This document shows, in pieces, positions 4,672 through 28,425 of a stretch of DNA of 38,781 bases. A model generated the notes under the pieces. It searched no databases. It was not told where the DNA came from and saw nothing but the letters and a program-made list of their open reading frames with translations. Each line of letters opens with the position of its first letter. Positions within the stretch are counted from its first letter, which is position 1. The translations under genes were made by a program, and so were the position numbers. Origin of the DNA: a virus (taxonomy: Duplodnaviria; Caudoviricetes); IMG/VR virus record IMGVR_UViG_3300031857_000518, positions 1-38,781 of that record; one strand, given 5' to 3'.

Positions 4672-4759
4672 TGCGTGATCCTTATAGGTTAAACACGCTC
4701 CCTTATCTCTAAACTACCTTACAAAACGCAGAAAATAAATAAAAAACGCAAAAACCACC

Positions 4760-5033
4760 AACCTAGGTCCAACCTAGATAATAAAATTAGTCGTTTATCT
4801 AGGTGGAGCGAACAGAGCTCGCAGCTGCCCTAGATAACCTAGGTAACCTAGGTACTTTTCCAACCTTCTATACAGGAATAAAAATATAATATATAATATG
4901 TAAATATAAAATATAATTCTATATAGTTTAATAGAATTTACCTAGGTTACCTAGGTTATCTAGGTTGGAGCCTTGAAATCGTTAGCTTTTTTAAAAACCG
5001 CTACCTAGGTTCGACCTAGGTTGGACCTAGGTT
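4760..5033. repeat. Nested inverted repeats built from ACCTAGGT units around an AT-rich core; candidate replication origin
   Basis: Perfect 26-bp IR at 4829-4854/4939-4964 and perfect 18-bp IR at 4760-4777/5016-5033; core 4867-4938 is almost all A/T. Confidence 0.8.
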
Positions 5034-5120
5034 TTGGAGCCCTAAAACAATAAAATCCTAAAACATCTGTTTTATGTGCGAAATATAATTAGTCAAAAAA
5101 GATGTAATATTTTCACAATT

Positions 5121-5201
5121 ATACAGTTTTAAGGCTTTACTTCTTTGTCAAAATCCACAATAATATAATTGTAAGTTTGATTAAATCTTACACCGTGTAA
5201 A
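5121..5201 (+). promoter_or_regulatory. Early promoter P1 with leader hairpin
   Basis: TTTACT(5136)-17 bp-AATAAT, then GTAAG/CTTAC stem and CGTGTAAA; near-duplicate at 11847-11928. Confidence 0.7.
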
Positions 5202-5217
5202 GAAAAGGAAAGCTAAA

Positions 5218-5454
5218 ATGAAAACCAAATTGACAGTGTACTTTGAAAAATTACCTTCCGAAGCCAAAATCTTAAAAGAACTTCAAACTGATTATGGTTT
5301 CAGAACCTCCGAATTACGTCAAGTCAAGATCTTAAATGTTAAGCGTGAAAATTTTAACACAACGGACGATAAGTACACCGCTTTTGAAGTTACGATCTCC
5401 GCGCCTGTTAAGATTTTAGAAGAAGTAATAAACAGAAACAACACGCCACACTAA
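5218..5454 (+). CDS. Hypothetical early protein, 78 aa
   Basis: ORF with AAGGA RBS directly after P1. Confidence 0.7.
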   Translation: MKTKLTVYFEKLPSEAKILKELQTDYGFRTSELRQVKILNVKRENFNTTDDKYTAFEVTISAPVKILEEVINRNNTPH

Positions 5455-5483
5455 TCAACACAAGTAACAGGGAGAACACAATT

Positions 5484-5633
5484 ATGGTCAGAACATACGA
5501 CGTTTACGCGATTAGAAATGACAAAGAGTACAAGCTAAATACAACACCAATGACACACAAACAGGCTTGCACTTTCAAAAGCAAATTTACCATTCGAAAA
5601 GAAACAACCTATATGTTGAAGGAAATCGCGTAA
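5484..5633 (+). CDS. Hypothetical protein, 49 aa (not in ORF track)
   Basis: GGAG RBS; MVRTYDVYAIRNDKEYKL...; fills the gap up to denV. Confidence 0.6.
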   Translation: MVRTYDVYAIRNDKEYKLNTTPMTHKQACTFKSKFTIRKETTYMLKEIA

Positions 5634-5635
5634 CC

Positions 5636-6049
5636 ATGACCCGCATTAATTGTGTCCCCGTACAGGAACTCACAGACAAACACCTATTAGCAGAGTACCG
5701 AGAACTGCCGCGCGTATTCAAGCTTGCCCGCCGATGCCCCGACGCGCCGAAGAATTACACGCTAGGCGCGGGGCATGTTAAATTCTTTTACGACAAGCTG
5801 CTTTATTGTCAAAAACGTCAAGTTCAGCTTTACGAAGAAATGAAGTTGCGCGGTTTTAAACCAAAGTACGACCCTGAAGAATTATGGCACTACCATCCTA
5901 AAGCTGGTGGTCGAACATTTGAATATCAATGGGAAGACTGGGCGCCAACGCCCGAAGCTTTAGAGATCAATCGCAACCGAATTGGCGAGCGTATTCTAGC
6001 CTCAAAACTTAAGAAACAACCGCAAGCCTTTGATAAGGTTAAAATTTAA
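5636..6049 (+). CDS. denV: Pyrimidine-dimer DNA glycosylase (T4 endonuclease V family)
   Basis: MTRIN...LTDKHLLAEYRELPRVF and LGAGHVKFFYDKL, with catalytic Thr2 and the YRE Glu. Confidence 0.95.
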   Translation: MTRINCVPVQELTDKHLLAEYRELPRVFKLARRCPDAPKNYTLGAGHVKFFYDKLLYCQKRQVQLYEEMKLRGFKPKYDPEELWHYHPKAGGRTFEYQWEDWAPTPEALEINRNRIGERILASKLKKQPQAFDKVKI

Positions 6050-9967: not shown

Positions 9968-10272
9968 CCCCAGAAGAACATCGCAAGGCCGCATTGGATG
10001 AATTCAAATTGCTTTACAAGCACGGAGAAAAATTCGGTGCTGAAATAATGGTTAAATGTTTTATTTGGTGCGAAAAATACCAAAATGATATCGAAGCCGC
10101 GCTTTCCGCGCCAGCGGTGCAGCCAGATTTAGAAGCAGAGGCTTTTGTGAACCGCACCATTCATAACTTCACCCGATTTCCAAATGAAATAGAAAATTCC
10201 CCGCAACAGAAAAAAACTTTAGAACTTTGGCTGCGAATACAGGAAATTGTTAAAAAGCACAACGGAAGCTAA
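9964..10272 (+). CDS. Hypothetical protein
   Basis: Start MTPEEHRK overlaps the upstream stop. Confidence 0.6.
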   Translation: MTPEEHRKAALDEFKLLYKHGEKFGAEIMVKCFIWCEKYQNDIEAALSAPAVQPDLEAEAFVNRTIHNFTRFPNEIENSPQQKKTLELWLRIQEIVKKHNGS

Positions 10273-10276
10273 CATC

Positions 10277-10675
10277 ATGCAAAACCCTTGGGAAATTTTA
10301 GGCGTACATCGTAAGTCAACGGACGAAGAAATCCGAGAAGCTTTTCACAACCTTGCAAAAATCTACCATCCAGATACAATGGAAAAAAGTTACTCATTTA
10401 AATTCTACCAGATAAACGAAGCCTATCAGTTAATCAAGGATAAGAAACGACGTACTGAGTATCTAAAGCGTCTGACCGGAACTTCCTCTTGTAAGGAGTG
10501 TACCGGAACGGGCGTTCGAACTAAGTCTAAAGGGATAACAGCTAAGACATATCTGGCCTGTAAAGGTTGTAAAGGTTCGGGGTTAATTTTTAACAAGAAG
10601 GAAAATAAAAATGTCGTTATTGAGTTACGAGGAACTGCTGGCTCTGGCCGCAAGGGGAGTGATAAAGAACGTTGA
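10277..10675 (+). CDS. Mini DnaJ: J-domain plus DnaJ-type zinc finger
   Basis: NPWEILGV...YHPD...INEAYQLI; CKECTGTG and CKGCKGSG. Confidence 0.88.
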   Translation: MQNPWEILGVHRKSTDEEIREAFHNLAKIYHPDTMEKSYSFKFYQINEAYQLIKDKKRRTEYLKRLTGTSSCKECTGTGVRTKSKGITAKTYLACKGCKGSGLIFNKKENKNVVIELRGTAGSGRKGSDKER

Positions 10676-11150
10676 TACGGAATACATAAACGCTGCTTCC
10701 ATAGACATCACTTTAGGAAGTTTGGTTATGATAGAAGACAGAGACGCACAACCAGAAACAATATCTTTGGCGAAGCGCGAGCGTCCAAAAATGGTAACAT
10801 TCAACTGTGACACAGGATTTCTTTTACGTCCAGGAGATTTTATCCTTGCACAATCTGAACAAGAGTTTAATCTTCCTAACGATATCAGCGCAGAATATAA
10901 GTTAAAATCTTCTATGGCGCGGATAGGAATTAACCATGCACTTGCCGGCTGGTGTGATGCTGGCTGGAACGGTTCTGTACTAACCCTTGAACTTATGAAC
11001 GTAACAAGAAATCACACGATTGAACTACGTAAAGGCGACCGCATTGGTCAGATGATTTTCTTCCATCACCGCGAAGTTCCTAACGATAAAAGCTATGCGG
11101 CGCGTGGGAGGTACAACAATGATAAGAAAGTGGAAGGAGCTAAAGAATGA
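10611..11150 (+). CDS. dcd: dCTP deaminase (trimeric dUTPase superfamily)
   Basis: INAASIDITLG, KSSMARIG, AGWCDAGWNG, LTLEL, RIGQMIF, GRY. Confidence 0.88.
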   Translation: MSLLSYEELLALAARGVIKNVDTEYINAASIDITLGSLVMIEDRDAQPETISLAKRERPKMVTFNCDTGFLLRPGDFILAQSEQEFNLPNDISAEYKLKSSMARIGINHALAGWCDAGWNGSVLTLELMNVTRNHTIELRKGDRIGQMIFFHHREVPNDKSYAARGRYNNDKKVEGAKE

Positions 11151-11846: not shown

Positions 11847-11928
11847 ATACACTTTTAAGCTTTACTTCTTTGTTCGAATGCAGGATAATCTACTTGTAAG
11901 GTCAATTCTGTCCTTACTTCGTGTAAAT
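11847..11928 (+). promoter_or_regulatory. Early promoter P2 with leader hairpin (paralogue of P1)
   Basis: TTTACT(11861)-17 bp-GATAAT, then GTAAGG/CCTTAC stem and CGTGTAAA. Confidence 0.7.
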
Positions 11929-14235: not shown

Positions 14236-14430
14236 ATGAAAGAACTTAAAAATTGGATAGAGTTGAATATTGCGTTGCTAAACAGCAGCGAGGAGTTCTG
14301 TAAGCAACTCTTAGACTTTGAAGTTAAGAACAAAAAACGTGTGACCTTTGTGAGGCGAATATTCGGTCGTTGGGCCATGCTTAGAAATCGCAGTGAACTG
14401 GCAAAAGTTTTAAGAAAGATTTCAAAGTGA
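14236..14430 (+). CDS. Hypothetical protein
   Basis: GGAGA RBS; GTGA overlap with polA. Confidence 0.65.
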   Translation: MKELKNWIELNIALLNSSEEFCKQLLDFEVKNKKRVTFVRRIFGRWAMLRNRSELAKVLRKISK

Positions 14431-16295
14431 AGATCCCAAAAGTAGTAGCTATAGATTTCGAGACCAAAGGTATCGAAGAGCGACCTGACTATCCTCCTGT
14501 CCCAGTCGGAGTTTCTATTCAGTGGTACAATCAGAAAGTGCCAAAGTATTTTTCTTGGGGTCATAAAACAAATAACAATTGTACGAAGGAAGAAGCAGCT
14601 TTGGAGCTCAAAAAGATTTGGGCAACAGAATTCCCTGTTCTATTCCACCATGCTAAATTCGACATTGACGTTGCAGAGACGCATATGGGTATGGTACCAC
14701 TACCTTGGCATAGAATTCACGATACGCAATTCCTATTGTTCTTACAAGATCCACATGCAGAAAGTCTAGCGTTAAAGGCTTCAGCTGAACGTCTTTTAAA
14801 CATGAAGCCTGACGAGCGTGATGCCCTTATGGAATGGATACTGAACAACGTTCCAGAGGCGGCGAAGAAGAAATCTACATGGGGTGCGTACATCAGCGAG
14901 GCTCCTGGAACTTTAGCAGGTATCTATGCCAATGCCGACGTTACACGCACTAAGAAATTATTCGAACACCTTTACCCGATAATAGTTTCTGAGAATATGC
15001 TGGCTGCGTACGATCGCGAGCGCAAGCTACTTCCTATGTTCCTCGAAAGCGAGCGTAGAGGTATGCGCGTCGACGTTTCTGCGCTGCGTAAAGACATAGC
15101 GATGTATTACGGAGAACTTGAAAAAGCTGAAAATTGGCTTCTTAAGAAGCTGAAGCTGAAAGAGCTTAATTTTGACAGTGACGTTGAACTTTCTAAGGCT
15201 TTAGAAAATTCAAAAATCGTGACGGACTGGGAACTTACAAAAACCGGCAAGCGTTCTACTTCTAAGAAGACAATGACGATTGAAAAGTTTACAGATAAGA
15301 ATTTCTTTCTTGTCCTTGGCTACCGTAACAGACTCACCACTTGCCTTCGAATTTTCATGGAGCCTTGGCTTGCTAAGGCTGAAAAGAACAAGGGATATAT
15401 TAACCCGAACTGGAACCAAGTTCGCCAGCCAAAAGGTTCAGACGATACAAAAGGCACGCGCACCGGACGTCCAAGCTGCGACAATCCTAACTTTCTAAAC
15501 GTGGCTAAGTCATTCGAGGATCGTGGAGACGACTGGACACACCCCAAGTTTATAGACTTAGCACCTCTACCTTTGGTTCGTAACTATACGCTGCCAGATC
15601 CTAATTGCGTATGGCTACATCGAGATTATAATCAGCAGGAGCTTAGAATACTAGCACATTTTGAGAATGGAAAGCTGATGCAGGCGTATAAGGACGACGT
15701 AAGGCTAGACGTTCACACCTTTATTCAGAACGCTGTTAAAACTCTACTCGGTAAGTTTTTCGACCGCAGCACGATTAAAACAACGGTGTTCGGGAGGATA
15801 TACGGTCAAGGCTTGGGAAGTTTAGCGATGCGCCTCAAAGTTCCTGTGGAAGAAGTTAAACAAGTTCGAGACGCTCAGAACAAAGTTCTTCCTGGACTTC
15901 CAGACATTGACAAAAACATTAAAGATATGGCGCGGCGCGGAGAGCCTATTGTAACTTGGGGTGGTCGGATATATTATTGCGAAAAACCAAAGTACGTAGA
16001 AAAGTTTGATCGCGAAATGACCTTTGAGTATAAGCTTCTCAATTATCTCGTTCAAGGTTCTGCTGCCGACGCTACTAAGGAAGCTCTTATTCGTTGGTAC
16101 TATCATCCGGAGCGCAAGGCTCGATTTATTGTTACCGTGTACGACGAAATTAATATATGTGCGCCAAAGAGCATCGCAAAGCAGCAGATGAAATTACTTC
16201 GTGAATGTATGGAGAGTATCGAGCTTGACGTTCCGTTGATATCCGACGGAGCCGCAGGATCAAGCTGGGGTAATTTAGAGAAAGTCAAATGGTGA
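14427..16295 (+). CDS. polA: Family A DNA polymerase with 3'-5' exonuclease
   Basis: Exo I IDFET; TGRPS; motif A DYNQQELRILAH; motif B KTTVFGRIYG; QGSAAD; motif C VYDEI. Confidence 0.96.
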   Translation: MKIPKVVAIDFETKGIEERPDYPPVPVGVSIQWYNQKVPKYFSWGHKTNNNCTKEEAALELKKIWATEFPVLFHHAKFDIDVAETHMGMVPLPWHRIHDTQFLLFLQDPHAESLALKASAERLLNMKPDERDALMEWILNNVPEAAKKKSTWGAYISEAPGTLAGIYANADVTRTKKLFEHLYPIIVSENMLAAYDRERKLLPMFLESERRGMRVDVSALRKDIAMYYGELEKAENWLLKKLKLKELNFDSDVELSKALENSKIVTDWELTKTGKRSTSKKTMTIEKFTDKNFFLVLGYRNRLTTCLRIFMEPWLAKAEKNKGYINPNWNQVRQPKGSDDTKGTRTGRPSCDNPNFLNVAKSFEDRGDDWTHPKFIDLAPLPLVRNYTLPDPNCVWLHRDYNQQELRILAHFENGKLMQAYKDDVRLDVHTFIQNAVKTLLGKFFDRSTIKTTVFGRIYGQGLGSLAMRLKVPVEEVKQVRDAQNKVLPGLPDIDKNIKDMARRGEPIVTWGGRIYYCEKPKYVEKFDREMTFEYKLLNYLVQGSAADATKEALIRWYYHPERKARFIVTVYDEINICAPKSIAKQQMKLLRECMESIELDVPLISDGAAGSSWGNLEKVKW

Positions 16296-17748: not shown

Positions 17749-18970
17749 ATGTGGTCTGATTATAGCTCCGCTTCGGGTATGCTATTCTGTCTGGCCCAAA
17801 GAGCTTGAGAAATGGAGTGATTTTAAAGGAATGACCATAGGCGTCCTACATGGTTCTAAGAAAGAGAAAGCCTTAGAAGCAGACAAAGATCTTTACGTGA
17901 TAAATCCTGAAGGACTTCCTTGGCTTTTGAAACATCCGCTGTTTAAAAAGAAATTTAAAGATCAAGCTCTTTACGTTGACGAAAGTAGCAAGTTCAAAAA
18001 TACAACAACTCAAAGATTTAAACTGTTGCGTCCGTTCTTACCTATGTTCGGTCGCCGCTACATTCTCACAGGCTCGTTCGCTCCGAACGGTCTGCTGGAT
18101 ATTTTTGGGCAGATGTACATTCTTGATCTTGGTAATGCGCTGGGTCAGTACATCACGCACTATAGAAATAAATATTTCTACCCCTCCGGCTTTGGCGGTT
18201 ACGAGTGGAAGTTACAAGAGGGTGCCGCTAAGCGGATACAGGATAGCATTAAACCTATGACGCTACGCCTTGACGCGGAAGATTATCTGAAGCTCCCAGA
18301 CCTTATTATCAACACAATCTATGTCGATCTTGACGAACGTAGTCGCGCAATGTACGACGAAATGGAAGACGATCTTATCGCGGCACTGGATAATAAGGAC
18401 GTGACAGCAGCCACCGCTGCCGTAGCGAGTAGTAAATGTTCCCAGATTGCTAATGGAGGAATATATGACGAAGACGGTAAGTATCACTTCATCCACGACC
18501 TTAAAACGGAAGCTGTATCTGAAATCGTCAACGAGCTTAATGGCTCTCCAGCCTTGGTGGCATACGAGTATGGTCATGATCTCGATAGGCTGCGAAAAAG
18601 CTTCGGGAGTTCTACACCTTACATTGGAGGCGGTGTTACACCGAAAAGATCTTCACAATTGGAAGTTGCTTGGAATAAGGGAGAACTACCTGTCCTACTT
18701 GGCCAGCCAGCATCTATCGCACATGGGCTGAACCTACAGAATGCCGGAAATCATGTCATCTGGCATTCGTTGACTTGGAATTTTGAGTACTATGATCAAT
18801 TTAATCGCCGTATCCGGAGGCAAGGTAGTAAACATAATCAAGTGTTCGTACACCATATAATAGCTCGGGACACCGTGGATGAGCTTAAGCTACACGCATT
18901 AAATAGGAAATTCCGTACTCAAAAAGACCTATTTGACGCGCTTAACACTTTTCTTAAGAGAAAGAAATAA
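17549..18970 (+). CDS. SNF2-like superfamily 2 helicase
   Basis: PHSYQ, GLGKT, DESS, LTGS, HGLNLQ, RIRRQG. Confidence 0.93.
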   Translation: MMSKSTITLNKPSKLSNSAWKPHSYQRKAVKFMLQNSCAGLLLDPGLGKTSISIAAHKILQKEKLIRCGLIIAPLRVCYSVWPKELEKWSDFKGMTIGVLHGSKKEKALEADKDLYVINPEGLPWLLKHPLFKKKFKDQALYVDESSKFKNTTTQRFKLLRPFLPMFGRRYILTGSFAPNGLLDIFGQMYILDLGNALGQYITHYRNKYFYPSGFGGYEWKLQEGAAKRIQDSIKPMTLRLDAEDYLKLPDLIINTIYVDLDERSRAMYDEMEDDLIAALDNKDVTAATAAVASSKCSQIANGGIYDEDGKYHFIHDLKTEAVSEIVNELNGSPALVAYEYGHDLDRLRKSFGSSTPYIGGGVTPKRSSQLEVAWNKGELPVLLGQPASIAHGLNLQNAGNHVIWHSLTWNFEYYDQFNRRIRRQGSKHNQVFVHHIIARDTVDELKLHALNRKFRTQKDLFDALNTFLKRKK

Positions 18971-18986
18971 AATTATAAACAAATGT

Positions 18987-19018
18987 CTTTACTTATGTCT
19001 AGAGAAGAGGGATACATT
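18987..19018 (+). promoter_or_regulatory. Promoter P3
   Basis: CTTTACTT-N18-TACATT, same spacing as P1 (TAATAT) and P2 (TAATCT); intergenic. Confidence 0.55.
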
Positions 19019-19055
19019 ACTTGGACTATCAACAAACACTTTAAAGGAGGAACTT

Positions 19056-19457
19056 ATGTCTAAATTTGCAAAAAAACCAAAAGAGGAAGTTGCTGAAACT
19101 TCTGAGAAAAAACCAAAGACTTGGACTAACAATCCACAACTACAAGACCAAGAAACTGGCGAGACAACTCCAGCTGGTAAGGCCGTTCAAGCTAAAGCTA
19201 AGGTTCGTACCGTAGCTAAGTCGGAAGAAGAACCTGCCAAAAAAGCTCCTAAGAAAGCTGAAAAGGTAGAAAAATCTTCTGACGATCGTAAGATCACGCT
19301 GCTGACTAAAGAGAATCCGAAGCGTGAAGGTTCTGCAGCATGGACACGCTTTGAACTGTATCGTAAAGCTAAAAACGTCGAGCAGTTCTACGCTGCTGGT
19401 GGTTCAAGTGCCGACCTGCGGTATGACGAAAAAGCTGGTCATATCCAACTTTCTTAA
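19056..19457 (+). CDS. Lys/Glu/Ala-rich protein with compact C-terminal domain, possibly DNA-binding
   Basis: Strong AAGGAGG RBS; low-complexity N-half; NPKREGS...RFELY...ADLRYD..GHI domain. Confidence 0.7.
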   Translation: MSKFAKKPKEEVAETSEKKPKTWTNNPQLQDQETGETTPAGKAVQAKAKVRTVAKSEEEPAKKAPKKAEKVEKSSDDRKITLLTKENPKREGSAAWTRFELYRKAKNVEQFYAAGGSSADLRYDEKAGHIQLS

Positions 19458-19464
19458 TTAATAA

Positions 19465-19498
19465 AGTGGCTGAGGCGTAAATCTCAGCCACTACTTTT
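19465..19498 (+). terminator. Intrinsic terminator
   Basis: AGTGGCTGAG/CTCAGCCACT perfect 10-bp stem then ACTTTT. Confidence 0.75.
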
Positions 19499-19514: not shown

Positions 19515-20294
19515 ATGCAAATATTTATACCGACCTATGGTCGTAGCGCTCAGCAACATACTTTCAGAAATCTTCCAAAATCTTTACAAAAGAAAACAAC
19601 GCTAGTTGTACAGAAACGCGAGGCGCATCTTTACGACAACTATCCAATATTAGTGCTACCGGCAAGCATCCAAACTATATCGCCTGCGCGCCAATATATT
19701 ATGAAAGTTGCCGAGACGTTCGGCCACAAGAAAGTTGTCATGCTCGACGACGATCTTAGATTTGACTGGCGTCGAATGGACGACGGAGGGAAGTTCCTCG
19801 TTGCTACGGATAAACAAGTAGAAGATCTTTTTAAAACTATCGAGAAGAAACTTGATAAGTATGCGCATGTCGGGGTACTATCTCGTGAAGGTGGAAATCG
19901 TATTCTTACCGAGACTGTAGAATGTACGCGAATGATGCGTGTTTTAGCCTATTGTGTTGAAACTTACCACAAAGAGAAAATAAAATTTGATAGACTACCC
20001 TTACAGGAGGATTTCGATGTCACACTGCAACTGCTCAAAAAAGGCTACCCAAACCTCGTGCTGTGCGGGTGGGTTAATGGTCAAGGTTCTTCCGGTGCGA
20101 AAGGCGGCTGCTCCCATTTCAGAACCATTGAGCTTCACAACGAGAATGCGAAGAAGCTTGCTGAATTTCATGCGCCGTTTGTTAAAGTCGTAGAGAAACA
20201 AACAAAAGGAGCTTGGGGTGGAAAGGCGCGTCTGGACGTCATGGTCCAGTGGAAGAAAGCTTACGAAAGCTCAAAGAAAAATGCGCGTAAATGA
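19515..20294 (+). CDS. GT-A glycosyltransferase, GREB1/TET-associated (TAGT)-like
   Basis: IFIPTYGRS, VMLDDDL (DxD), EDFDVTLQLLKKG, GGCS..RT. Confidence 0.85.
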   Translation: MQIFIPTYGRSAQQHTFRNLPKSLQKKTTLVVQKREAHLYDNYPILVLPASIQTISPARQYIMKVAETFGHKKVVMLDDDLRFDWRRMDDGGKFLVATDKQVEDLFKTIEKKLDKYAHVGVLSREGGNRILTETVECTRMMRVLAYCVETYHKEKIKFDRLPLQEDFDVTLQLLKKGYPNLVLCGWVNGQGSSGAKGGCSHFRTIELHNENAKKLAEFHAPFVKVVEKQTKGAWGGKARLDVMVQWKKAYESSKKNARK

Positions 20295-21120
20295 ATTATT
20301 CGATTTTATCCAAAAGCGTCACGACATATATATTATGCGCGAAAAAGGGTATCTTAAACCTTGGACCTCGGATCCTATTCTACAGCAATACAGGTTCTGT
20401 AACGTCTATAGAGAGCTGGATACTCAGACAATTTGGTTCGCTAACAACTGGCGCGTACCGAACGCTGAAGATCCAGACCTTTGGTTTGCTTCCCTCGTTT
20501 TTCGCTTTGTCAATTGGTCCGAGACCGCTGCGGAGCTAGGCTATCCCGTCCCATGGGATCCGCAACGCTTTAAAGCGGTGCTACAAGGTCGTAAAAGACG
20601 TAAATTGAAGGTTTACAGCGCCGCATATATGATATCGACCCACGGAGTTAAGGAAGAAAAATCAAGTTATCTTGCGAATTCTTTGTCTAAGATTTGGCAG
20701 TTCAAAGAGCAATTTAGATTTGAGAAAAACGACACGCTTTCTACAATGCATAGAAGACTGACTGGAGCTTTTGACGTTGGTTCGTTCCTTGCCGGTCAGG
20801 TTATCGCGGACGCTAAATATGCTGGTGATATACTGAAAGCTTCTGACTGGTGGACTTTTGCAGCTTCCGGACCAGGAAGTCGTCGAGGGTTGAACAGGGT
20901 GTGTAACGCACCTATAAACATACCTTGGAAAGAAGATGTTTGGTACGATACCCTGAGAACGCTAAAGAATCGCATAGATCCTATGTTCAAAAAAGCTAGA
21001 ATGCCTCAGCTTCATGCTCAAGATTTACAGAACTGCCTTTGCGAGTTTGATAAATACGAACGTGTAAGATTGGGTGAAGGTCGCCCGAAAGCAAAATATA
21101 ATGGAGTATCCTATGAATGA
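20281..21120 (+). CDS. 5-hmdU DNA kinase (aGPT-PPlase1 family)
   Basis: PWTSDPILQQYRFCNVYRELD, FLAGQVIAD, GPGSRRGL, QNCLCEFDKY. Confidence 0.9.
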   Translation: MRVNELFDFIQKRHDIYIMREKGYLKPWTSDPILQQYRFCNVYRELDTQTIWFANNWRVPNAEDPDLWFASLVFRFVNWSETAAELGYPVPWDPQRFKAVLQGRKRRKLKVYSAAYMISTHGVKEEKSSYLANSLSKIWQFKEQFRFEKNDTLSTMHRRLTGAFDVGSFLAGQVIADAKYAGDILKASDWWTFAASGPGSRRGLNRVCNAPINIPWKEDVWYDTLRTLKNRIDPMFKKARMPQLHAQDLQNCLCEFDKYERVRLGEGRPKAKYNGVSYE

Positions 21121-22147
21121 AATTAATGCCTGTAACGTAAACGACGCTGTCAACCTAGGCTTGAGCTACCTACTCGAACATGGTATCGAGGAAGATAGTC
21201 GCAACGGAAAAGTTCTCGTAGCTCCTGGACCTGTGATGACAATTTACAGCAACCCTAAAGAGCATGTTCTTTTCAGTCCGACCCGTGACGCTAATCCATT
21301 TTTCCACTTGATGGAAGCTCTTTGGATGCTCAACGGCGATAACGATCTAGCGTTCCCCATGATGTTCAACAAGCGATTTAAGGAGTACAGCGATGACGGT
21401 AGTCGTATATGGGGAGCTTACGGCTGGCGCTGGCGTAAGTTCTTTGGATCTGACCAAATTTCAAGGATCTGTGCCGAACTTTCTGACAATAAAAAGAGTC
21501 GCCGTTGTGTCCTCTCTATGTGGAACGGTATGCCGAATGACCATGACATGTGGGAAGGTCAAGACGATCTCTTTGTCGCCACAAATGGTGGACGGGACGT
21601 ACCGTGTAACACCCACGCATACTTCGACGTTCGTGGTGGCTTTCTCAACATGACCGTCTGCAACCGCTCCAACGACGCTATCTGGGGAGCTTACGGCGCG
21701 AACGCTGTTCATTTCTCAATCCTACAAGAATATATGGCCGAGAAAATTGGCGTTACAGTTGGCCTTTACAGACAGTTCAGCAATAACTTCCACGCTTATC
21801 TTGACGTGTATAGTCGCGAAAAGCTTGCCAAGATAGCTGCCGAGGGTCATAGATACGATCATTATTCCAAAGTTTTCGACACTGTACCGACGATACCGCT
21901 TGGTGCGAACAATATGTATTGGGATTCGGATCTTAGATCTTTTATCGCCGATCGTAAAGTTCAGTGGGAAAGTAAGAATTTCTTTTCTCAGGTCGCTGGG
22001 CCAATGTACGACGCTTGGCAGGAACATAAGGCTGGAGGTACTGAGAACGCTCTGATTCACATACGCTCAATGCCATTCTGCGACTGGCGCATCGCCTGTG
22101 AAGCTTGGTTACTTCGCCGTAGTAAAGGAGCTGACAATGCAGCGTAG
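21113..22147 (+). CDS. Thymidylate-synthase homologue, probable dUMP hydroxymethylase
   Basis: SRNG, RDANPFFHLMEALW, AYGWRWR, catalytic PCN, NRSND..WG...NAVHF (Asn is the dU-specific residue); adjacent to the hmdU kinase. Confidence 0.87.
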   Translation: MNEINACNVNDAVNLGLSYLLEHGIEEDSRNGKVLVAPGPVMTIYSNPKEHVLFSPTRDANPFFHLMEALWMLNGDNDLAFPMMFNKRFKEYSDDGSRIWGAYGWRWRKFFGSDQISRICAELSDNKKSRRCVLSMWNGMPNDHDMWEGQDDLFVATNGGRDVPCNTHAYFDVRGGFLNMTVCNRSNDAIWGAYGANAVHFSILQEYMAEKIGVTVGLYRQFSNNFHAYLDVYSREKLAKIAAEGHRYDHYSKVFDTVPTIPLGANNMYWDSDLRSFIADRKVQWESKNFFSQVAGPMYDAWQEHKAGGTENALIHIRSMPFCDWRIACEAWLLRRSKGADNAA

Positions 22148-22661
22148 TTTCATATTCGACGGTGGTTATAGTACACGGTTCCACACCGTGGACGTCCATA
22201 ATCGGCAGGACATAGCTTCGCATAGTTTTGGCGTGGCGTGGTACTGCGAAGGTCTCTCTGGTGGCGAGGCCTCTAAGGATTTGATTATGGCCGCACTCTC
22301 GCACGACCTTGCAGAACATATTGTGGGGGATGTACCCTCGCCAGCGAAGCGATCGTTGGGTCTAAGTAAACAATTTCAAACGCTCGAGGATAAATATTTG
22401 GCTGAGAACGGATTGATGAAATATTTTGATAATCTATCTGAGAACGATAATAGGATCCTTAAATACGCCGATATGCTAGAAGGTATGACTTTCTGTCTTC
22501 GGGAGCGACGCCTTGGAAATAAAAACGTGGAAGTTGTTTATCAACGCTTTAGTTCTTACATCCTAGAACTTATGAGAGATCCTCAGTGTACCATAACCAT
22601 GAGCAATCTTGTGATCATACTAGAAAATCTTAATGAACAATGGAAGCAAGCCACAGAATGA
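22137..22661 (+). CDS. HD-domain nucleotide phosphohydrolase (YfbR-like)
   Basis: RFHT...QDIASHS...HDLAEHIVGDVPSPAK...KYAD. Confidence 0.88.
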   Translation: MQRSFIFDGGYSTRFHTVDVHNRQDIASHSFGVAWYCEGLSGGEASKDLIMAALSHDLAEHIVGDVPSPAKRSLGLSKQFQTLEDKYLAENGLMKYFDNLSENDNRILKYADMLEGMTFCLRERRLGNKNVEVVYQRFSSYILELMRDPQCTITMSNLVIILENLNEQWKQATE

Positions 22662-23017
22662 ACGCAAACGAAAAGCAAGTTGCCGGCACACATTACAAAG
22701 GGGAATATCAACACTGGGATTTTGTTGTAGATACGGAGATGCCCTACCTTTTGGGTTGTGCCACCAAGTATCTGACCCGTTGGAAGAAAAAGAACGGCAT
22801 AGAAGACCTTAAGAAGTGCATTCACTACATAGAGAAGGCAAAGGAAACAGAAACTTACCTCCTCCTGACACCCGAAGTCTTTAGAGCCATAGATCGGTTT
22901 ACATCGACCACTTTCACGCCCGAACAGTGGGAGGTTAAAAGCTTCAACGATATCTGCACAGGAAGATATCAGAATGCGATTAACGATATAGTTCAGATCA
23001 TAGAGGAACGTCCTTAA
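22658..23017 (+). CDS. DUF3310 domain protein
   Basis: QVAGTHYK, KYLTRWKKKNGIEDLKKCIHYI. Confidence 0.85.
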   Translation: MNANEKQVAGTHYKGEYQHWDFVVDTEMPYLLGCATKYLTRWKKKNGIEDLKKCIHYIEKAKETETYLLLTPEVFRAIDRFTSTTFTPEQWEVKSFNDICTGRYQNAINDIVQIIEERP

Positions 23018-23713: not shown

Positions 23714-24145
23714 CTATGAGATTTTGTCTTCAGATTTAGGGATACCACGAACTTGAAGACTTGCGTTCGATGGCATATGTAGTCTAAGCCAAGCAAGAGC
23801 ATCTTGAGAAGAACCCACCCCGTCTTTGCGGCGAAACAACCCAACAAGGATGCAGCCACGAGTATCTTTAATTGTATTTCCAGCATGAATAAGTATGGCA
23901 GTTCTATTTGGTACGTTACACACTTCCCACACATCTTTAAAATGAGTGCCGTCGTGTTCTTTTAGTTTGTAAGTCCCTGTTGGAATGCAGGATATTTCTC
24001 TCTGATTGTCTTTCCAAGGTTCTTCAAGAGTGAAAACACCAGTTGGAGTTTCATCGTCAAAAAGCAAAACACCGTGAGTCCCGAATAAATCTTCAAACTC
24101 ACGCTTCAGAATCATCTTTTGTTTCCTTTCTTTTTCTGTAGTCAT
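23714..24145 (-). CDS. DUF5675-family protein, putative endolysin
   Basis: TLEEPW.DN...SCIPTGTY, VPNRTAILIHAGN...DTRGCILVG; between holin and spanins. Start 24145 or 24115. Confidence 0.8.
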   Translation of the reverse strand: MTTEKERKQKMILKREFEDLFGTHGVLLFDDETPTGVFTLEEPWKDNQREISCIPTGTYKLKEHDGTHFKDVWEVCNVPNRTAILIHAGNTIKDTRGCILVGLFRRKDGVGSSQDALAWLRLHMPSNASLQVRGIPKSEDKIS

Positions 24146-24455: not shown

Positions 24456-25982
24456 CTATCTTTGATATTGGTAGTATAAGTTATCTACTCGAAGTGATCT
24501 TGCAGTAGTCCCTACTGTTTTTTCAATTTGTAGTACACATCGAGGGTGTATTGTGAGTGAAGATGCAATGTTCGTAGTAATAGTACCAACTAAGACATCA
24601 TCTATAAAGAACGTGACTGCTGTTTTTGCACGGTTAATTTCAATTCTCAATCTTTGCTGAACACCAGCCACAGGTGGGACTGTTGTATTGACTACAGTTT
24701 CAGTTCCAGCATTGTCAGAGACGCAAACCCAGTTTCCACTATTAATATCATCTTTATACGCAAACCCCAAGAAGCCGTTATCAGTTCTTGTAGTGTAACC
24801 AGTGTTAAGATACATAGTTAACCAAAAACGATTTGTACCATCTGACAAGGTTGGGATGTCAATAGTCGCTTCATGCCTCCTAAATTTATTTGAAGTTGTT
24901 AGATCATAGCAAGGCTCTACACTAAAAGCATTGATATATGCCCAGCCCGTAGCTGTTGTCCCAGTCTGTAAATTTACGATTCCTCGGTGTGGATCTGCTG
25001 CAGCAGTAGAAAGTGCAAGACCAGCACCGCTACCGGTGACTCCAGCTGAAACTTCATTAGTGGTATCATAGCGTCTAAATTGGTTCCAATATTCAGTAAA
25101 GTTAGATCTGGATATTTCAGGACTAATTGGACGCCAAATTGTCCATTTTGTGCCATCGTAAGTTCGTTGCCAAACGTCACCAGAAGCAGTTTCAGTCCAT
25201 TCTTGAATACGCGTTGCTAATGCTGTTGCAGCATAAATCCTTAAAATGCCCACAGTAGCTGAGTCATAAAGGGGGGCATTTATATAAGTAGTACCAGCTG
25301 TGATATAAGACCCAGTCGTCGTTAAAGTGTTCCAATCATCTGTAGCCCCAATCGTGGACGTAGCTGTAAAGCTGCTTGAAGTTGCACCAAGAAGAATAAA
25401 GCTTGTACCGTTATAGAACATAAACACTGGTACGTTTGCGGTAAGGTCTCCAGCAGCAATATTCACAAAAGTACCGTTACTATTTTTTGTGATGTTTTTA
25501 GTCGCCAAGCCACTGATCGCCAAGGTCGAGGCACCAGTATTTGAGTTCTGCGGAACAAGCGTGACAAGTTGGCCAAGAGCATAGGCGGTTATTGCGGGGT
25601 CTGGGGCAATAACATAAGCGTTTACACTGCCAGTGTCTGCGGCAAAGTTGATCAGACGCTCTGCGTTGGATCCCGTGGACACTTGAATGTTATCGTAATT
25701 CCAAACGGCTCCGCTATTGGCATCCGCAGCGGCTTGGGTAGGGTACAGCGCCAACTTACACTTCTTTTCAACGTGTGGAATAATTACCGAACCACCAGAA
25801 GACACGTAACCAGCGGCATTTAGAACAAAGCTCGTGGCCGTTGTAGCTCCGGTAAAATCCGTTGCCATTGGGATAACAGTGTTTGTTTGAGCGTCATAAG
25901 CCTTAAGTACAGCTCCCGAATAAGGGAGACCGCTAGAGTTTACGTATTGCCGAGGCATATATTCTAATGGGAACCAAGTCAT
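24456..25982 (-). CDS. Tail fibre/spike (receptor-binding protein)
   Basis: P22-like attachment N-terminus (QYVNSSGLPYSG); DTGSVNAY module; knob motif DWNTLTTTGSY...QEWT...WQRT...WTIW; beta-rich C-terminus. Confidence 0.85.
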   Translation of the reverse strand: MTWFPLEYMPRQYVNSSGLPYSGAVLKAYDAQTNTVIPMATDFTGATTATSFVLNAAGYVSSGGSVIIPHVEKKCKLALYPTQAAADANSGAVWNYDNIQVSTGSNAERLINFAADTGSVNAYVIAPDPAITAYALGQLVTLVPQNSNTGASTLAISGLATKNITKNSNGTFVNIAAGDLTANVPVFMFYNGTSFILLGATSSSFTATSTIGATDDWNTLTTTGSYITAGTTYINAPLYDSATVGILRIYAATALATRIQEWTETASGDVWQRTYDGTKWTIWRPISPEISRSNFTEYWNQFRRYDTTNEVSAGVTGSGAGLALSTAAADPHRGIVNLQTGTTATGWAYINAFSVEPCYDLTTSNKFRRHEATIDIPTLSDGTNRFWLTMYLNTGYTTRTDNGFLGFAYKDDINSGNWVCVSDNAGTETVVNTTVPPVAGVQQRLRIEINRAKTAVTFFIDDVLVGTITTNIASSLTIHPRCVLQIEKTVGTTARSLRVDNLYYQYQR

Positions 25983-26419
25983 TTATTTTTCTCCTTGATA
26001 ATTTTTAGCTGTTCTTTACGCAAATTTACGAGAGAGTCGTCACCTTTACCCTCAACGACATTTCTATAGACAAGCCCATCGTACCCATTTTTCTCAAGGG
26101 CATCTCTCAATAACTCAAAGCCTGCACTATTACTCCGCATCCCTTTTACGATATTCTCATATTGTTCGTTCGTAATACCTTTGGCTCTTCGAGCTGCAGC
26201 AGCAAGTTCAATGGCACCTTCCAATCCCCCGTCATCTTCAATTCGTAGCGGATTTTTAATGTTATACTCGATCGTGTACAATTGACCTTTACCATCCTTA
26301 TATTTCGCACCCAAGCGTTCAGACGCTGACTTTTTAGTCCCGATATGTGTGAAAGACTTAAATTCACCTATATCTTTCGCCCCGCCATGGTAAGCAAGAA
26401 GCTGATCACCTATCGTGGC
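25979..26419 (-). CDS. ADP-ribosyltransferase-like (ART-PolyVal-type) domain, predicted -1 frameshift extension of the ejection protein
   Basis: Frame is open upstream of the track's TTG 26314: ATIGDQLLAYHGG..F..THIGT..SA..R...LY..E..IKNPL...GYDGLVYRN..EG..DS; no ATG/GTG/TTG before YHG; stop overlaps the tail-fibre ATG. Confidence 0.72.
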   Translation of the reverse strand, partial: ATIGDQLLAYHGGAKDIGEFKSFTHIGTKKSASERLGAKYKDGKGQLYTIEYNIKNPLRIEDDGGLEGAIELAAAARRAKGITNEQYENIVKGMRSNSAGFELLRDALEKNGYDGLVYRNVVEGKGDDSLVNLRKEQLKIIKEKNK

Positions 26420-28425
26420 TTTGGGCGAGGCTGTGTTTCGCGACCTCCGTAGTTCTTGATTTCTTTAGCCAAATCTCTTGCTTGTGCGTTGGTTAATCCG
26501 AAAGTTTTCGCACGCTCGATAAACTTATTCTGCGAAATTTCACCATCAACAAGTTTCTTGCGAAGATTGTTAAACTCTTGAGCCTTAATTCCAACAAGAG
26601 AATTTTCAAGCTTCATTACTTGGCTTGGCGGTGTCTTTGTAGCTGCGCCGCTTAAATCTGCGCCCTCTGCAGGTTGCTTGTTCATCAGACGTTGAGCGAT
26701 GTTGGTCTGTTGCTCTGTCATAGGTAGTGCAGACATTTTATCGGGAGCCGCTAATTTCAAAGGCGCTGTTTTGTCGATAACACCTTCAGACGGAAGCGTT
26801 CTCTGTAGGTTTAACTTGCGCTGAGCTTGCTTGATCTGCGTATCTGTCATTGGCGGCAGAGCTATTTTATCGGGAGCCGCAAGACGTAGCTGCTCTGGAT
26901 ATTCAGGCTTAGGAATATCGACATCCCGCAACTTTGACATCAAATCTTTACCCAAAGCCTCTTGAACTTTGACGCCACGCTTAGCTATAGCGGCGGCATT
27001 GGCACTACGCGCAGCCATACCAGCTACCTGAGCCCCAGCTGCCGCAGGTATGTTTCCAGTGGAACCAAGCACGATAGCCGTAAGTCTGCTAGTTAATGGG
27101 CCAAGCAATTCAGCGGTCATTCCTGGAGTAGCTGCTTTTTTCAAAAGTTCTTTGGCTTCAGATGGCCAACCTTTTAGATTTCCATTTTCAATGTCCATAT
27201 ACAGTTTTTTGTAGCCGTTCTGATACGCGGCTTCTGGATTTTTCGAAAGGCTTGCCCGCAAGGCGACCTCTTCCAATTCCTTGACGCGCATCTTTGCAGC
27301 CCAAATGTTACGACCATTAACCAATGCATCATTTCCGGCAGTATCAACTTCGTCAACAATCTGACGCAATTTTCTTTGAATTTTCTGTAATTCAAGACCG
27401 TTAGCTGTTACGCTTCCGGTTTCTGGATTTACAAAAGCTGGAGAGTTAATTTTAGCAGAAAGATTTCTGTCGATGTTTTCAATGTCTTCTAAAGTCATAT
27501 TCTTACCAGAGTTACCGCTGAACTCATCTAAAGCGTTTATAAGTTGATTTTGTTCTGCAGTGTATTTGCCGCTTGGCAAGGGCTTTGGTAGAGCTTGTTT
27601 AATCGAGCTGTCTAGTTTATCGCCAACTTGCTTAGCGTCAAACTTAGCACCAAGATACCCAGCTGTGTCGTAGTTTTGACCAGCCATCTTATCTAGTTCT
27701 TCAGTACCCAACAATTTTGGTTTTTGTGGTTTTGGAACCATGCTTTTTGTAAGCGCAGCATCTGAGGAAGCGTTCACTGTGTTTCTTAGGAGCTTTGTAC
27801 CCGCAGCCAAGCCTGTCGTTGTCCCCACAAGGTTAGCGGCTTGACCAGCTGCCTTTATATTTCTTGCGGCGCGTGGATATTGCTTGCTAAACAAGTCAAT
27901 GCTTTCTGGGATACCTTCACTTAAAGTTTTCCCAGTACCATCTGGAAGCTGACCAACAAAGTTAACAGCAGCTCCGATACCTTCTTTAACAAACTCAGGC
28001 GTGACTGTGCTAATTGCCTCAGCCACAGGATCCACAAATAGCTGTGAAGCCGTTGCCATAGTACCTTGGTATAAAGTTTCAGGCTTTGTCTGTTGTCCAG
28101 AAGCTCCCGCTTGACGAATGCCCTGAATTTCCTGTTCACGTCTAGCATAGTTTTCTTTTAAGCGGTCAGTAAAGCCTCCGGCCTCGACAAGTCTAGCACG
28201 GCTTCGCCAGTCCGAACCTTGCGTCGGTTGCTGCTGTACGGGTCTAGCTCTGGAACGCCAATCAGATGTTGACGCTGGTTGCGGCGCGGTTGTTGGCTTC
28301 GCAGGAGGTAGCGTTTGATATTGATTAACACCCTGACCTGAGGCTCTTTGTGCAAGAATAGCCTGTCGGCTTTCTTCCATTGGATCCATTGGGACAGGTC
28401 GAGATCTATTTCGCCAATCACTCAT
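26410..28425 (-). CDS. Large internal virion/ejection protein (P22 gp16 position)
   Basis: Third of three Ala/Gly/Gln-rich helical genes between tail hub and tail fibre; internal repeats. Confidence 0.75.
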   Translation of the reverse strand: MSDWRNRSRPVPMDPMEESRQAILAQRASGQGVNQYQTLPPAKPTTAPQPASTSDWRSRARPVQQQPTQGSDWRSRARLVEAGGFTDRLKENYARREQEIQGIRQAGASGQQTKPETLYQGTMATASQLFVDPVAEAISTVTPEFVKEGIGAAVNFVGQLPDGTGKTLSEGIPESIDLFSKQYPRAARNIKAAGQAANLVGTTTGLAAGTKLLRNTVNASSDAALTKSMVPKPQKPKLLGTEELDKMAGQNYDTAGYLGAKFDAKQVGDKLDSSIKQALPKPLPSGKYTAEQNQLINALDEFSGNSGKNMTLEDIENIDRNLSAKINSPAFVNPETGSVTANGLELQKIQRKLRQIVDEVDTAGNDALVNGRNIWAAKMRVKELEEVALRASLSKNPEAAYQNGYKKLYMDIENGNLKGWPSEAKELLKKAATPGMTAELLGPLTSRLTAIVLGSTGNIPAAAGAQVAGMAARSANAAAIAKRGVKVQEALGKDLMSKLRDVDIPKPEYPEQLRLAAPDKIALPPMTDTQIKQAQRKLNLQRTLPSEGVIDKTAPLKLAAPDKMSALPMTEQQTNIAQRLMNKQPAEGADLSGAATKTPPSQVMKLENSLVGIKAQEFNNLRKKLVDGEISQNKFIERAKTFGLTNAQARDLAKEIKNYGGRETQPRPKPR
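26419..26425 (-). other. -1 ribosomal frameshift slippery heptamer C CCA AAG
   Basis: X XXY YYZ correctly phased in the 671-aa ORF, two sense codons before its TAG; the -1 frame is the ART frame. Confidence 0.7.

What the first reader, a model, noticed from the sequence alone, without database searches (positions are those of the whole stretch)
19515..23017. Thymidine-hypermodification operon with hmdU kinase and glycosyltransferase but no amino-acid:DNA transferase
Seen: five overlapping genes in order: GREB1/TAGT-like glycosyltransferase, 5-hmdU DNA kinase, thymidylate-synthase homologue with the dU-specific Asn, HD phosphohydrolase, DUF3310. A dCTP deaminase lies at 10611. Known: in ViI, M6, phiW-14 and SP10-type pathways hmdU replaces T, the kinase phosphorylates it, and a second enzyme (aGPT-PPlase2) installs an amine or amino acid; TAGT relatives include the trypanosome base J glucosyltransferase. 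I see no aGPT-PPlase2, PLP enzyme, radical SAM or TET/JBP gene in this apparently complete genome. Inference: the DNA carries either a base-J-like glycosyl-hmU alongside phospho-hmU, or a sugar/polyol linked through the phosphate. Similar neighbourhoods may have been noted computationally, but I do not know the product.
Basis: partly seen in the sequence, partly recalled or inferred. Interest (0 to 1): 0.83.

Follow-up and report, generated by a model that had tools for sequence, protein, structure and literature searches.

The report
Kinase-free phage sugar-thymine DNA cassette
An uncultured phage carries five linked genes that likely replace thymine in its DNA with hydroxymethyluracil and likely attach a sugar straight onto it, much like base J of trypanosomes; the gene first read as a DNA kinase is instead an enzyme of unknown activity, and the same gene set recurs in many other phages.

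Summary
The five overlapping genes are real, but gene 2 is not the 5-hmdU kinase. It is the clade-1 aGPT-PPlase (M6 gp55 type): all-helical, with a helix-hairpin-helix glycosylase fold. Pfam's name 'HMUDK_hel' misleads; the proven kinase is a separate P-loop protein. This probably closed 38.5-kb genome has no detectable kinase, amino-acid transferase, PLP, radical SAM or TET gene, so phospho-hmU and a phosphate-linked sugar lose their basis.

The thymidylate-synthase homologue carries the hydroxymethylase Asp and the uracil-specific Asn. In relatives, the slot beside the PPlase1 + hydroxymethylase core holds a TAGT glycosyltransferase (17 of 36) or the kinase (10 of 36), never both. Best reading (about 60%): hmU replaces T and is O-glycosylated directly, giving a base-J-like base with an unknown sugar.

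PPlase1 keeps the catalytic Cys of the transferases and is a candidate (about 25%) for the unknown enzyme that turns hmU back into T in DNA.

The neighbourhood is widespread. It was noted in pelagiphages in print, and this scan found it before on other genomes. My paper searches found no measured product.

The parts
19515..20294 (+). TAGT/GREB1-like GT-A glycosyltransferase, 259 aa; R59, D78-D80 and E165-D166-F167 motifs; predicted hmU-DNA glycosyltransferase
   Evidence: PF20691 E 4e-27; PHROG 842 beta-glucosyl-HMC-alpha-glucosyltransferase E 2e-51; conserved columns; AF2 pLDDT 93; GT-A fold matches
20281..21120 (+). aGPT-PPlase clade 1 (M6 gp55 type), 279 aa; HhH-glycosylase fold; Gln250-Asn251-x-x-Cys254; not a kinase; activity unknown
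   Evidence: PF18723 E 1e-42; M6 gp55 33%; all-helical model pLDDT 94; VIA Z 9.4 to PaMx11 gp46 transferase and Z 8-11 to DNA glycosylases and queuine salvage enzyme; Cys in 56 of 56 GT-linked homologues
21113..22147 (+). Predicted dUMP hydroxymethylase (thymidylate-synthase family), 344 aa; Asp162, Cys165, Asn197
   Evidence: PF00303; M6 gp58 42%; motif columns and tree; Asp three residues before Cys as hydroxymethylase mark, PMC6400193 passages
22137..22661 (+). HD-domain deoxynucleotide phosphohydrolase (YfbR/DatZ-like), 174 aa, H29, H56-D57, D112; inferred to deplete competing dT/dU nucleotides
   Evidence: PF12917 E 8e-13; PHROG dATP triphosphohydrolase E 2e-15; M6 gp59 35%; residue positions
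22658..23017 (+). DUF3310 (SaV-like) protein, 119 aa; nucleotide-pool role guessed from context
   Evidence: PF11753 E 8e-9; M6 gp61 41%; Atlas clusters DUF3310
10611..11150 (+). dCTP deaminase; inferred source of dU nucleotides for the hydroxymethylase
   Evidence: TIGR02274 103.7 bits, cut-off 92.8; PF22769
11350..11799 (+). HIGH-family cytidylyl/adenylyltransferase (TagD/RfaE-II-like); could make a donor, but is not a core part of the cassette
   Evidence: PF01467; TIGR00125; present in 1 of 13 records at least 90% complete
14427..16295 (+). Family A DNA polymerase; inferred to incorporate hm-dUTP
   Evidence: PF00476 E 6e-45; linked to the cassette in relatives
19465..19492 (+). 11-bp stem-loop followed by a T-rich tail, just upstream of the glycosyltransferase; terminator- or attenuator-like
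   Evidence: consensus scan only; the scan's total count was at chance level

Best explanation
The cassette likely makes hydroxymethyl-dUMP, which is likely built into phage DNA in place of thymine, and the glycosyltransferase then likely transfers a sugar directly onto the hydroxymethyl oxygen, giving a predicted base-J-like glycosyl-hydroxymethyluracil without any kinase step. Shown by calls: gene identities, active-site residues, no detectable kinase or clade-2 transferase, and the exchange of glycosyltransferase and kinase modules in relatives. Inferred: dCTP deaminase feeds dUMP; the HD and DUF3310 proteins lower competing dT/dU nucleotides; host kinases make the triphosphate; the family A polymerase incorporates it; the sugar donor is a host NDP-sugar of unknown kind; the purpose is protection from restriction enzymes. 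The chemistry fits: a kinase is needed to turn the hydroxymethyl carbon into an electrophile for amines, whereas a glycosyltransferase uses the free hydroxyl as nucleophile, which phosphorylation would block. The clade-1 aGPT-PPlase is an accessory enzyme acting on hmU-DNA. My preferred guess (about 25%) is that it converts unglycosylated hmU to thymine through a Cys-C6 adduct and an exocyclic methylene.
For: (1) The TS homologue has Asp162 three residues before Cys165 (Asp in hydroxymethylases, Leu in true TS; PMC6400193) and Asn197 rather than Asp. The same holds in 54 of 54 GT-linked homologues by the printed columns. It groups with M6 gp58 (SH-aLRT 97, quick tree), apart from true TS and dCMP hydroxymethylases. 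(2) The GT belongs to the family that holds DNA glycosyltransferases and has the R...DDD...EDF motifs described for phage DNA GT-As and JGT. (3) Of 35 GT clusters with at least 4 kb on both sides (of 77 clusters from 165 loci), 34 have the TS homologue, 31 PPlase1, 1 a kinase. (4) M6 gp54 finds a kinase in 8 of 8 control records, 1 of 37 TAGT records, and 0 of the 20 non-control IMG/VR records at least 90% complete. (5) Among 36 polymerase-defined clusters with PPlase1 + TS: GT only 17, kinase only 10, both 0, neither 9 (Fisher p 4e-4, relatedness ignored). The kinase label needs 4 changes on the polymerase tree. (6) GT + TS occur without PPlase1 (4 of 35 clusters lack it within 4 kb; complete record MW202897). 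(7) Weak: G/C-only 6-mer palindromes are avoided more (15 vs 41.8 expected) than T-containing ones (476 vs 572).
Against: No biochemical data; my searches found no phage with a measured glycosyl-hmU. The closest named GT family (beta-glucosyl-HMC-alpha-glucosyltransferase) adds a second sugar to a sugar (established knowledge), and the fold also matches teichoic-acid GTs TarP and RmlT. One locus (L035) has GT and kinase + AADT together. A very divergent kinase could be missed: PF18748 missed the L035 kinase. The palindrome signal is modest across relatives (p 0.012 for 6-mers, none for 4-mers, loci not independent). CheckV gives 78% completeness, and a 40,963-nt contig with the identical GT exists whose other 25 kb I could not read.
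Confidence: 0.6

Rival explanations
1. PPlase1 is itself a group transferase. It activates hmU through its Cys and installs a first group (polyol, sugar or amine), and the glycosyltransferase then decorates that group rather than hmU.
For: The Cys motif aligns with the catalytic E-T-x-x-C of clade-2 transferases, and the fold matches PaMx11 gp46 (Z 9.4). The SP10-like phage Goe26 has a kinase-PPlase1 fusion and no PF18724 gene, leaving PPlase1 as its only candidate transferase. Kinase + PPlase1 without AADT also occurs in relatives. T-even members of this GT family extend an existing sugar.
Against: No leaving-group enzyme in this genome. GT + TS without PPlase1 occur. M6 gp55 is not needed for the transfer reconstituted in lysates.
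Confidence: 0.15
2. The DNA carries mostly plain hmU (or T plus hmU), and the glycosyltransferase acts on something else, such as a host surface polymer or a protein.
For: Structural matches are to teichoic-acid and other cell-envelope GT-As. The genome is covered evenly in ordinary metagenome assemblies, so any modification does not block sequencing.
Against: The GT lies next to the hydroxymethylase in 34 of 35 clusters and replaces the kinase module in the same slot. Family relatives act on DNA (PMC preprint 10.1101/2023.12.21.572611 passages).
Confidence: 0.12
3. One reading: hmU is phosphorylated in DNA, and a sugar or polyol is attached through the phosphate or sits beside phospho-hmU, with the cytidylyltransferase supplying the donor.
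For: A cytidylyltransferase-like gene exists at 11350 and recurs in 11 of 41 records. A phage cytidylyltransferase is needed for a heptose modification in one published cytosine pathway. Phosphate-containing T modifications exist in Carin-5 and SP-15 (PMC12686479).
Against: No kinase is detectable and gene 2 has no P-loop or beta-sheet. The cytidylyltransferase is in only 1 of 13 near-complete GT records and lies about 8 kb from the cassette.
Confidence: 0.06
4. The TS homologue is an ordinary thymidylate synthase (or a dCMP hydroxymethylase) and T is not replaced.
For: NCBIfam and Pfam only call it thymidylate synthase, below equivalog cut-offs. The best PDB sequence match is a CMP hydroxymethylase. 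The RSND motif also occurs in a T5-like true TS, so it is not diagnostic.
Against: Asp at -3 and Asn at the specificity site; 42% identity to and grouping with M6 gp58; no dihydrofolate reductase among the 55 ORFs scanned.
Confidence: 0.07

Closest known systems
Thymidine hypermodification clusters of M6, PaMx11, ViI, PhiW-14, SP10 and SH-Ab 15599 (PMC5889632, PMC8989533, PMC13458397)
   Same: dUMP hydroxymethylase, clade-1 aGPT-PPlase, HD protein and DUF3310 are homologues of M6 gp58, gp55, gp59 and gp61, in the same order near a family A polymerase.
   Different: No P-loop 5-hmdU kinase, no clade-2 amino acid:DNA transferase, no PLP or radical SAM gene; a TAGT glycosyltransferase sits in their place.
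Base J (beta-D-glucosyl-hmU) of kinetoplastids: JBP1/2 + JGT
   Same: Predicted end product type: sugar on the hydroxymethyl of hmU in DNA, added by a GT-A of the TAGT/JGT group (family link via PF20691 and the passages; no direct comparison with JGT was run).
   Different: hmU would come from the nucleotide pool rather than from oxidation of T in DNA (no TET/JBP). Sugar and anomer are unknown.
T-even glucosyl-hmC (dCMP hydroxymethylase + DNA glucosyltransferases) and TET-associated phage GT-As (Pyle et al., bioRxiv 10.1101/2023.12.21.572611)
   Same: Pre-replicative hydroxymethylation then post-replicative glycosylation; the GT is in the same PHROG as beta-glucosyl-HMC-alpha-glucosyltransferase (22-25% identity).
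   Different: The base is predicted to be uracil-type (Asn, not Asp), and PPlase1 is present.
Uncharacterised GT + PPlase1 + TS clusters of phiJL001, Ralstonia phage RSL1, Brevibacterium phage LuckyBarnes and HTVC023P-type pelagiphages (PMC9599517)
   Same: The same gene families clustered, with no M6-type kinase in the three cultured genomes.
   Different: Gene order and accessories differ (RSL1: three GTs, a sulfotransferase and an APS kinase; LuckyBarnes: two GTs). I found no measured DNA product for any of them.

Membership tests
5-hmdU DNA kinase (5-HMUDK), for gene 20281-21120 | P-loop kinase domain homologous to M6 gp54 / ViI gp67 (PF18748) | tested here: not met
   No match to gp54, PF18748 or the five-seed HMM; all-helical model
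aGPT-PPlase clade 1 (PF18723) | Full-length match to the family profile and to M6 gp55 | tested here: met
   146.5 bits, profile 4-277 of 281; 33% over 311 columns
aGPT-PPlase clade 1 (PF18723) | HhH DNA-glycosylase-like fold with a conserved Cys in the last helix | tested here: met
   VIA Z 10.5 (rmsd 4.2, 187 aligned) to an 8-oxoG glycosylase and Z 9.4 (rmsd 4.3, 216 aligned) to 8z2m; Cys in 56 of 56
Amino acid:DNA transferase (aGPT-PPlase2, PF18724) | Match to PF18724 and the E-T-x-x-C-K motif | tested here: not met
   0 hits in the genome; gene 2 has Q-N-x-x-C-E; profile-profile P 0.027 only
M6/ViI-type thymidine hypermodification system | dUMP hydroxymethylase gene | tested here: met
   Asp162/Cys165/Asn197, 42% to M6 gp58, tree; activity itself untested
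M6/ViI-type thymidine hypermodification system | Kinase plus clade-2 transferase (5-PmdU intermediate) | tested here: not met
TAGT / JGT-like DNA glycosyltransferases | PF20691 match, GT-A fold, R...DDD...ED(Y/F) motifs | tested here: met
   96 bits, full profile; R59, D78-80, E165-D166-F167; fold
TAGT / JGT-like DNA glycosyltransferases | Sugar transfer to a hydroxymethylpyrimidine in DNA | not testable with these tools
   Needs an enzyme assay
Base J pathway | Thymidine hydroxylase (JBP/TET) acting on DNA | tested here: not met
   PF12851 0 hits
Base J pathway | Product is beta-D-glucosyl-hmU | not testable with these tools
   Donor and anomer cannot be read from sequence
dCMP hydroxymethylase (T4 gp42) | Asp at the position of T4 Asp179 | tested here: not met
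   Asn197
Classical thymidylate synthase | Leu three residues before the catalytic Cys | tested here: not met
   Asp162 here; Leu in both true-TS references (criterion from PMC6400193)

The most novel reading that the evidence does not exclude
This minimal cassette makes true base J or a sugar analogue in phage DNA by a nucleotide-pool route. The clade-1 aGPT-PPlase is the long-missing enzyme that reduces the remaining hydroxymethyluracil in DNA back to thymine without a kinase. That would also explain why SP10, PhiW-14, M6 and ViI DNAs hold ordinary T beside their modified base while SPO1-like phages, which lack the gene, keep hmU.
Probability: 0.17. Interest if true: 0.82.

Novelty: new variant of a known kind. 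Interest (0 to 1): 0.5.

Why it matters
If right, a large group of aquatic and soil phages armours its DNA with a glycosylated thymine substitute, for which my searches found no measured phage example. It would give base J a viral counterpart made by a different route, and supply a small DNA glycosyltransferase for labelling hmU. The correction matters on its own: Pfam's name 'HMUDK_hel' will make many annotators call these proteins kinases. The cassette also isolates PPlase1 from kinase and transferase, so it is a clean system for a stated open question, how hmU becomes T in phage DNA (PMC5889632). Interest is limited because the neighbourhood is common, was noted in print, and nothing about the product is shown.

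Tried and rejected
Kinase identity of gene 2: rejected. A Walker A pattern scan found none in a real gene, but the pattern also missed the P-loops of the primase-helicase and terminase, so I give it no weight.

PF18748 alone is too insensitive, since it missed the L035 kinase; I repeated the test with M6 gp54 as query.

Cytidylyltransferase as a core donor-making gene: not supported (11 of 41 records, 1 of 13 near-complete). The RSND motif as a hydroxymethylase mark: rejected, as it is also in a T5-like TS.

PDB sequence searches with the PPlase1 and GT profiles gave nothing significant; Foldseek on the PPlase1 model gave no match at E 0.001 or better. No kinase fold is listed, which alone does not exclude one. 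Profile-profile alignment of PPlase1 with AADT was weak (P 0.37, then 0.027).

Four-letter palindromes showed no cassette effect. The promoter scan was at chance level (38 vs 34.4). No RNA holder was listed. The left half of the window was not checked against sequencing runs. The careful TS tree did not finish; the quick tree is quoted. The ~310-aa slot family of L188/L234/L249 could not be identified.

Iyer et al. 2013 and Lohr et al. 2005 are not held, so what they say about this neighbourhood and about phiJL001 DNA is unseen. No supplements were read; those of PMC8989533 and of the Pyle preprint may show this cassette. No complex prediction was run, as no binding is claimed.
Full report
Setting. 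The window is a podovirus-like phage genome (P22-like portal, terminase, family A polymerase, SNF2 helicase). IMG/VR lists it as linear and 78% complete. However, its two ends overlap by 262 nt in the 3' end of the portal gene, with the first 127 nt identical and 25 differences after that. Contigs from runs X1 and X12 that reach the right end carry the left-end allele at 24 of the 24 listed sites. I read this as a closed circle of 38,519 bp with two alleles at the join.

The observation. The five genes exist in the stated order with overlaps of 14, 8, 11 and 4 nt, and the dCTP deaminase is at 10611. I scanned 55 likely genes out of 171 listed ORFs against Pfam and PHROGs, and the whole genome in six frames for the key families. 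There is no aGPT-PPlase2, no TET/JBP, and no match to the M6 PLP or radical SAM proteins.

The correction. Gene 2 (20281-21120) matches PF18723, which Pfam names '5-hmdU DNA kinase, helical domain'. Its counterpart in phage M6 is gp55 (33%, E 1e-48), not gp54. Lee et al. list gp54 and its homologues as P-loop kinases and show that gp54 plus gp51 suffice without gp55 (PMC8989533, section 16 read). They also report that SP10 gp186 with its C-terminal part deleted is still an active kinase (passage). In the SP10-like phage Goe26 that C-terminal part is the PF18723 domain, which probably explains the name (inference). The AlphaFold model of gene 2 is all-helical (pLDDT 94). It aligns with HhH DNA glycosylases, the queuine salvage enzyme (Z 10.9, rmsd 4.9, 222 aligned) and the PaMx11 glycine transferase 8z2m (Z 9.4, rmsd 4.3, 216 aligned). 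Three searches for a real kinase in the genome were empty: tblastn with gp54 (best E 2.1), PF18748, and an HMM from five kinases (best E 0.63). The genome therefore lacks both steps of the phosphate route, not only the second.

The hydroxymethylase. The TS homologue is 42% identical to M6 gp58 and 45% to phiJL001 gp24. It has Asp162 three residues before Cys165. That Asp marks hydroxymethylases, where true TS has Leu (PMC6400193, passages), and both true-TS references in my alignment have Leu. Asn197 stands where T4 gp42 has the cytosine-selecting Asp. All 54 GT-linked homologues show the same two residues in the printed columns. A quick IQ-TREE run (the careful one did not finish) puts them with M6 gp58 in one branch (SH-aLRT 97), apart from true TS and dCMP hydroxymethylases. 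That gp58 is M6's dUMP hydroxymethylase is itself inferred from M6's known bases.

The glycosyltransferase. It matches PF20691 over the whole profile and PHROG 842, folds as a GT-A, and keeps R59, D78-D80 and E165-D166-F167. These are the motifs that Pyle et al. describe for phage DNA GT-As and trypanosome JGT (preprint passages). It is the only glycosyltransferase found in the genome, so it would have to add the first sugar. The donor cannot be read from sequence; related enzymes use hexoses, HexNAc and others.

Comparative context. The GT has 748 homologues at E 1e-20 or better among 1003 candidates. From the best 80 viral and 80 metagenome loci plus 8 earlier ones I kept 165 loci, forming 77 clusters at 80% identity; 35 had at least 4 kb on both sides (42 dropped). 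Of these 35, TS was present in 34, PPlase1 in 31, DUF3310 in 29, HD in 17, kinase in 1, AADT in 1. On whole records, M6 gp54 found a kinase in 8 of 8 controls, 1 of 37 TAGT records (L035, a 13-kb fragment) and 0 of 5 records with other slot genes; of 21 IMG/VR records at least 90% complete only the control L226 had one. An independent sample chosen by the polymerase (80 loci, 63 clusters) had 38 clusters with TS, 36 of them with PPlase1: GT only 17, kinase only 10, both 0, neither 9 (Fisher p 4e-4, which ignores kinship). On the polymerase tree the kinase label (8 of the 10 rows; 2 short loci dropped) needs 4 changes, at least 3 forced by strong branches. Of 8 'neither' loci examined, 4 carry one GT-B-like family (Pfam hits below cut-off in 3), 1 a divergent TAGT (below cut-off) and 3 an unidentified family. 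So PPlase1 + hydroxymethylase is the fixed core in this lineage, and sugar transfer and phosphorylation are alternative modules. In a PPlase1-centred sample, 34 of 45 clusters had TS within 5 kb and 11 did not, so PPlase1 also occurs in other settings.

A genomic hint of T protection. In the window, G/C-only 6-mer palindromes are at 15 against 41.8 expected, T-containing ones at 476 against 572 (p 4e-4), and non-palindromic G/C-only words at 1.05 of expectation. Across relatives the gap is larger in 17 GT loci than in 12 loci without the cassette (p 0.012), but T-containing words alone differ at p 0.09 and 4-mers not at all. This is weak support and does not separate hmU from glycosyl-hmU.

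What PPlase1 may do. Its Cys254 is present in 56 of 56 GT-linked homologues, in (Q/E)-x-x-x-C-E. It aligns, weakly by profile (P 0.027), with the E-T-x-x-C of clade-2 transferases, whose Cys attacks C6 of the base (PMC11472151 and PMC13458397, passages). The same Q-N type occurs with and without a kinase, and GT + TS occur without PPlase1, so it seems neither to need phosphate nor to be needed for glycosylation. Lee et al. state that hmU in PhiW-14 and SP10 DNA is converted in place to T by an unknown route (PMC5889632, passage), and M6 gp54 phosphorylates only about 23% of hmU in vitro. PF18723 is absent from an SPO1-like genome and present in CBA120 and Goe26; that SPO1 DNA is fully hmU-substituted is recalled. 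I put hmU-to-T conversion at about 25%, group transfer at about 20% (Goe26 has no clade-2 gene), and repair or editing or something else for the rest. A search for a published solution listed only three papers I had already read in part.

The cytidylyltransferase at 11350 could make a donor, as in one published heptose pathway, but it is in 11 of 41 records and 1 of 13 near-complete ones. I treat it as a possible accessory.

Prior knowledge. Wittmers et al. (PMC9599517, passages) report TS, aG/PT-PPlase1, a 5'-deoxynucleotidase and this GT together in pelagiphages and call for functional work. Pyle et al. count many GT-A + ThyS contigs. That Iyer et al. 2013 predicted such systems is partly recalled; the paper is not held. 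Cultured phiJL001, RSL1 and LuckyBarnes carry the genes. The glycosylated T of Carin-5 and SP-15 has a linker and a phosphate and is a different chemistry (PMC12686479, parts 1-3 of 6 read). Section 19 of PMC7824862 (read whole) and passages of PMC13229309 and PMC10201439 add nothing on this cassette. Searches listed no measured glycosyl-hmU in a phage; the library lacks most subscription papers, and no supplements were read. This scan reported similar cassettes on other genomes.

Verdict. A real, widespread and chemically uncharacterised variant of thymidine hypermodification. Direct glycosylation of hmU is the best reading (0.6). Interest 0.5; it would rise to about 0.8 if PPlase1 proves to be the hmU-to-T enzyme.

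Noticed in passing
window 4758-5024: Nested inverted repeats (26-nt arms 100% complementary, 23-nt arms 91%) rich in CCTAGG, in the gap between the divergent early and late gene blocks; origin-like.
   Followed up: no
window 5128-5182, 11853-11907 and 23959-23994: A 36-55 nt repeat upstream of gene blocks; the first two copies contain the same sigma-70-like TTTACT-17-xATAAT arrangement, probably early promoters.
   Followed up: partly
window 4156-4671 (-): NusG-family antiterminator heading the late (terminase-portal) block.
   Followed up: no
window 5567-6049 (+): T4 endonuclease V-like pyrimidine dimer glycosylase (PF03013); also in the polymerase relative L186.
   Followed up: no
window 25979-26314 (-): Small ORF with a weak ART-PolyVal match (E 2e-4, below cut-off) just after a 671-aa probable ejected protein; one contig in run X1 skips 25984-26609, suggesting a variant without it.
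   Followed up: no
window 10247-10675 (+): DnaJ-domain protein with a partial zinc-finger, overlapping the dCTP deaminase start.
   Followed up: no
window 18933-19457 (+): Lys/Ala-rich protein with a conserved C-terminal domain, found just upstream of the GT in many relatives and as gp18 in phiJL001; no family match.
   Followed up: partly
L035:4019-11725: The one locus with dCTP deaminase, AADT, kinase, two PPlase1 genes and the TAGT GT together; it may carry two modifications.
   Followed up: partly
L171:5675-14069 (Ralstonia phage RSL1): APS kinase, three TAGT GTs, nucleotidyltransferases and a sulfotransferase beside PPlase1 and the hydroxymethylase; suggests a sulfated oligosaccharide on hmU.
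   Followed up: no
L188:6040-7014, L234:15283-16269, L249:9079-10050: An unannotated ~310-aa family fills the slot where relatives have a GT or kinase; no Pfam match.
   Followed up: partly
L057, L073, L081: AT-rich relatives almost lack G/C-only 4-mer palindromes (0.04-0.28 of expectation) while T-containing ones are near expectation; no matched AT-rich controls were tested.
   Followed up: partly
L173:1353-2823 and 4944-5750 (Microbacterium phage Golden): P-loop kinase-like gene plus PPlase1 with a very divergent TS homologue and no AADT seen in the 10.7-kb stretch fetched.
   Followed up: no
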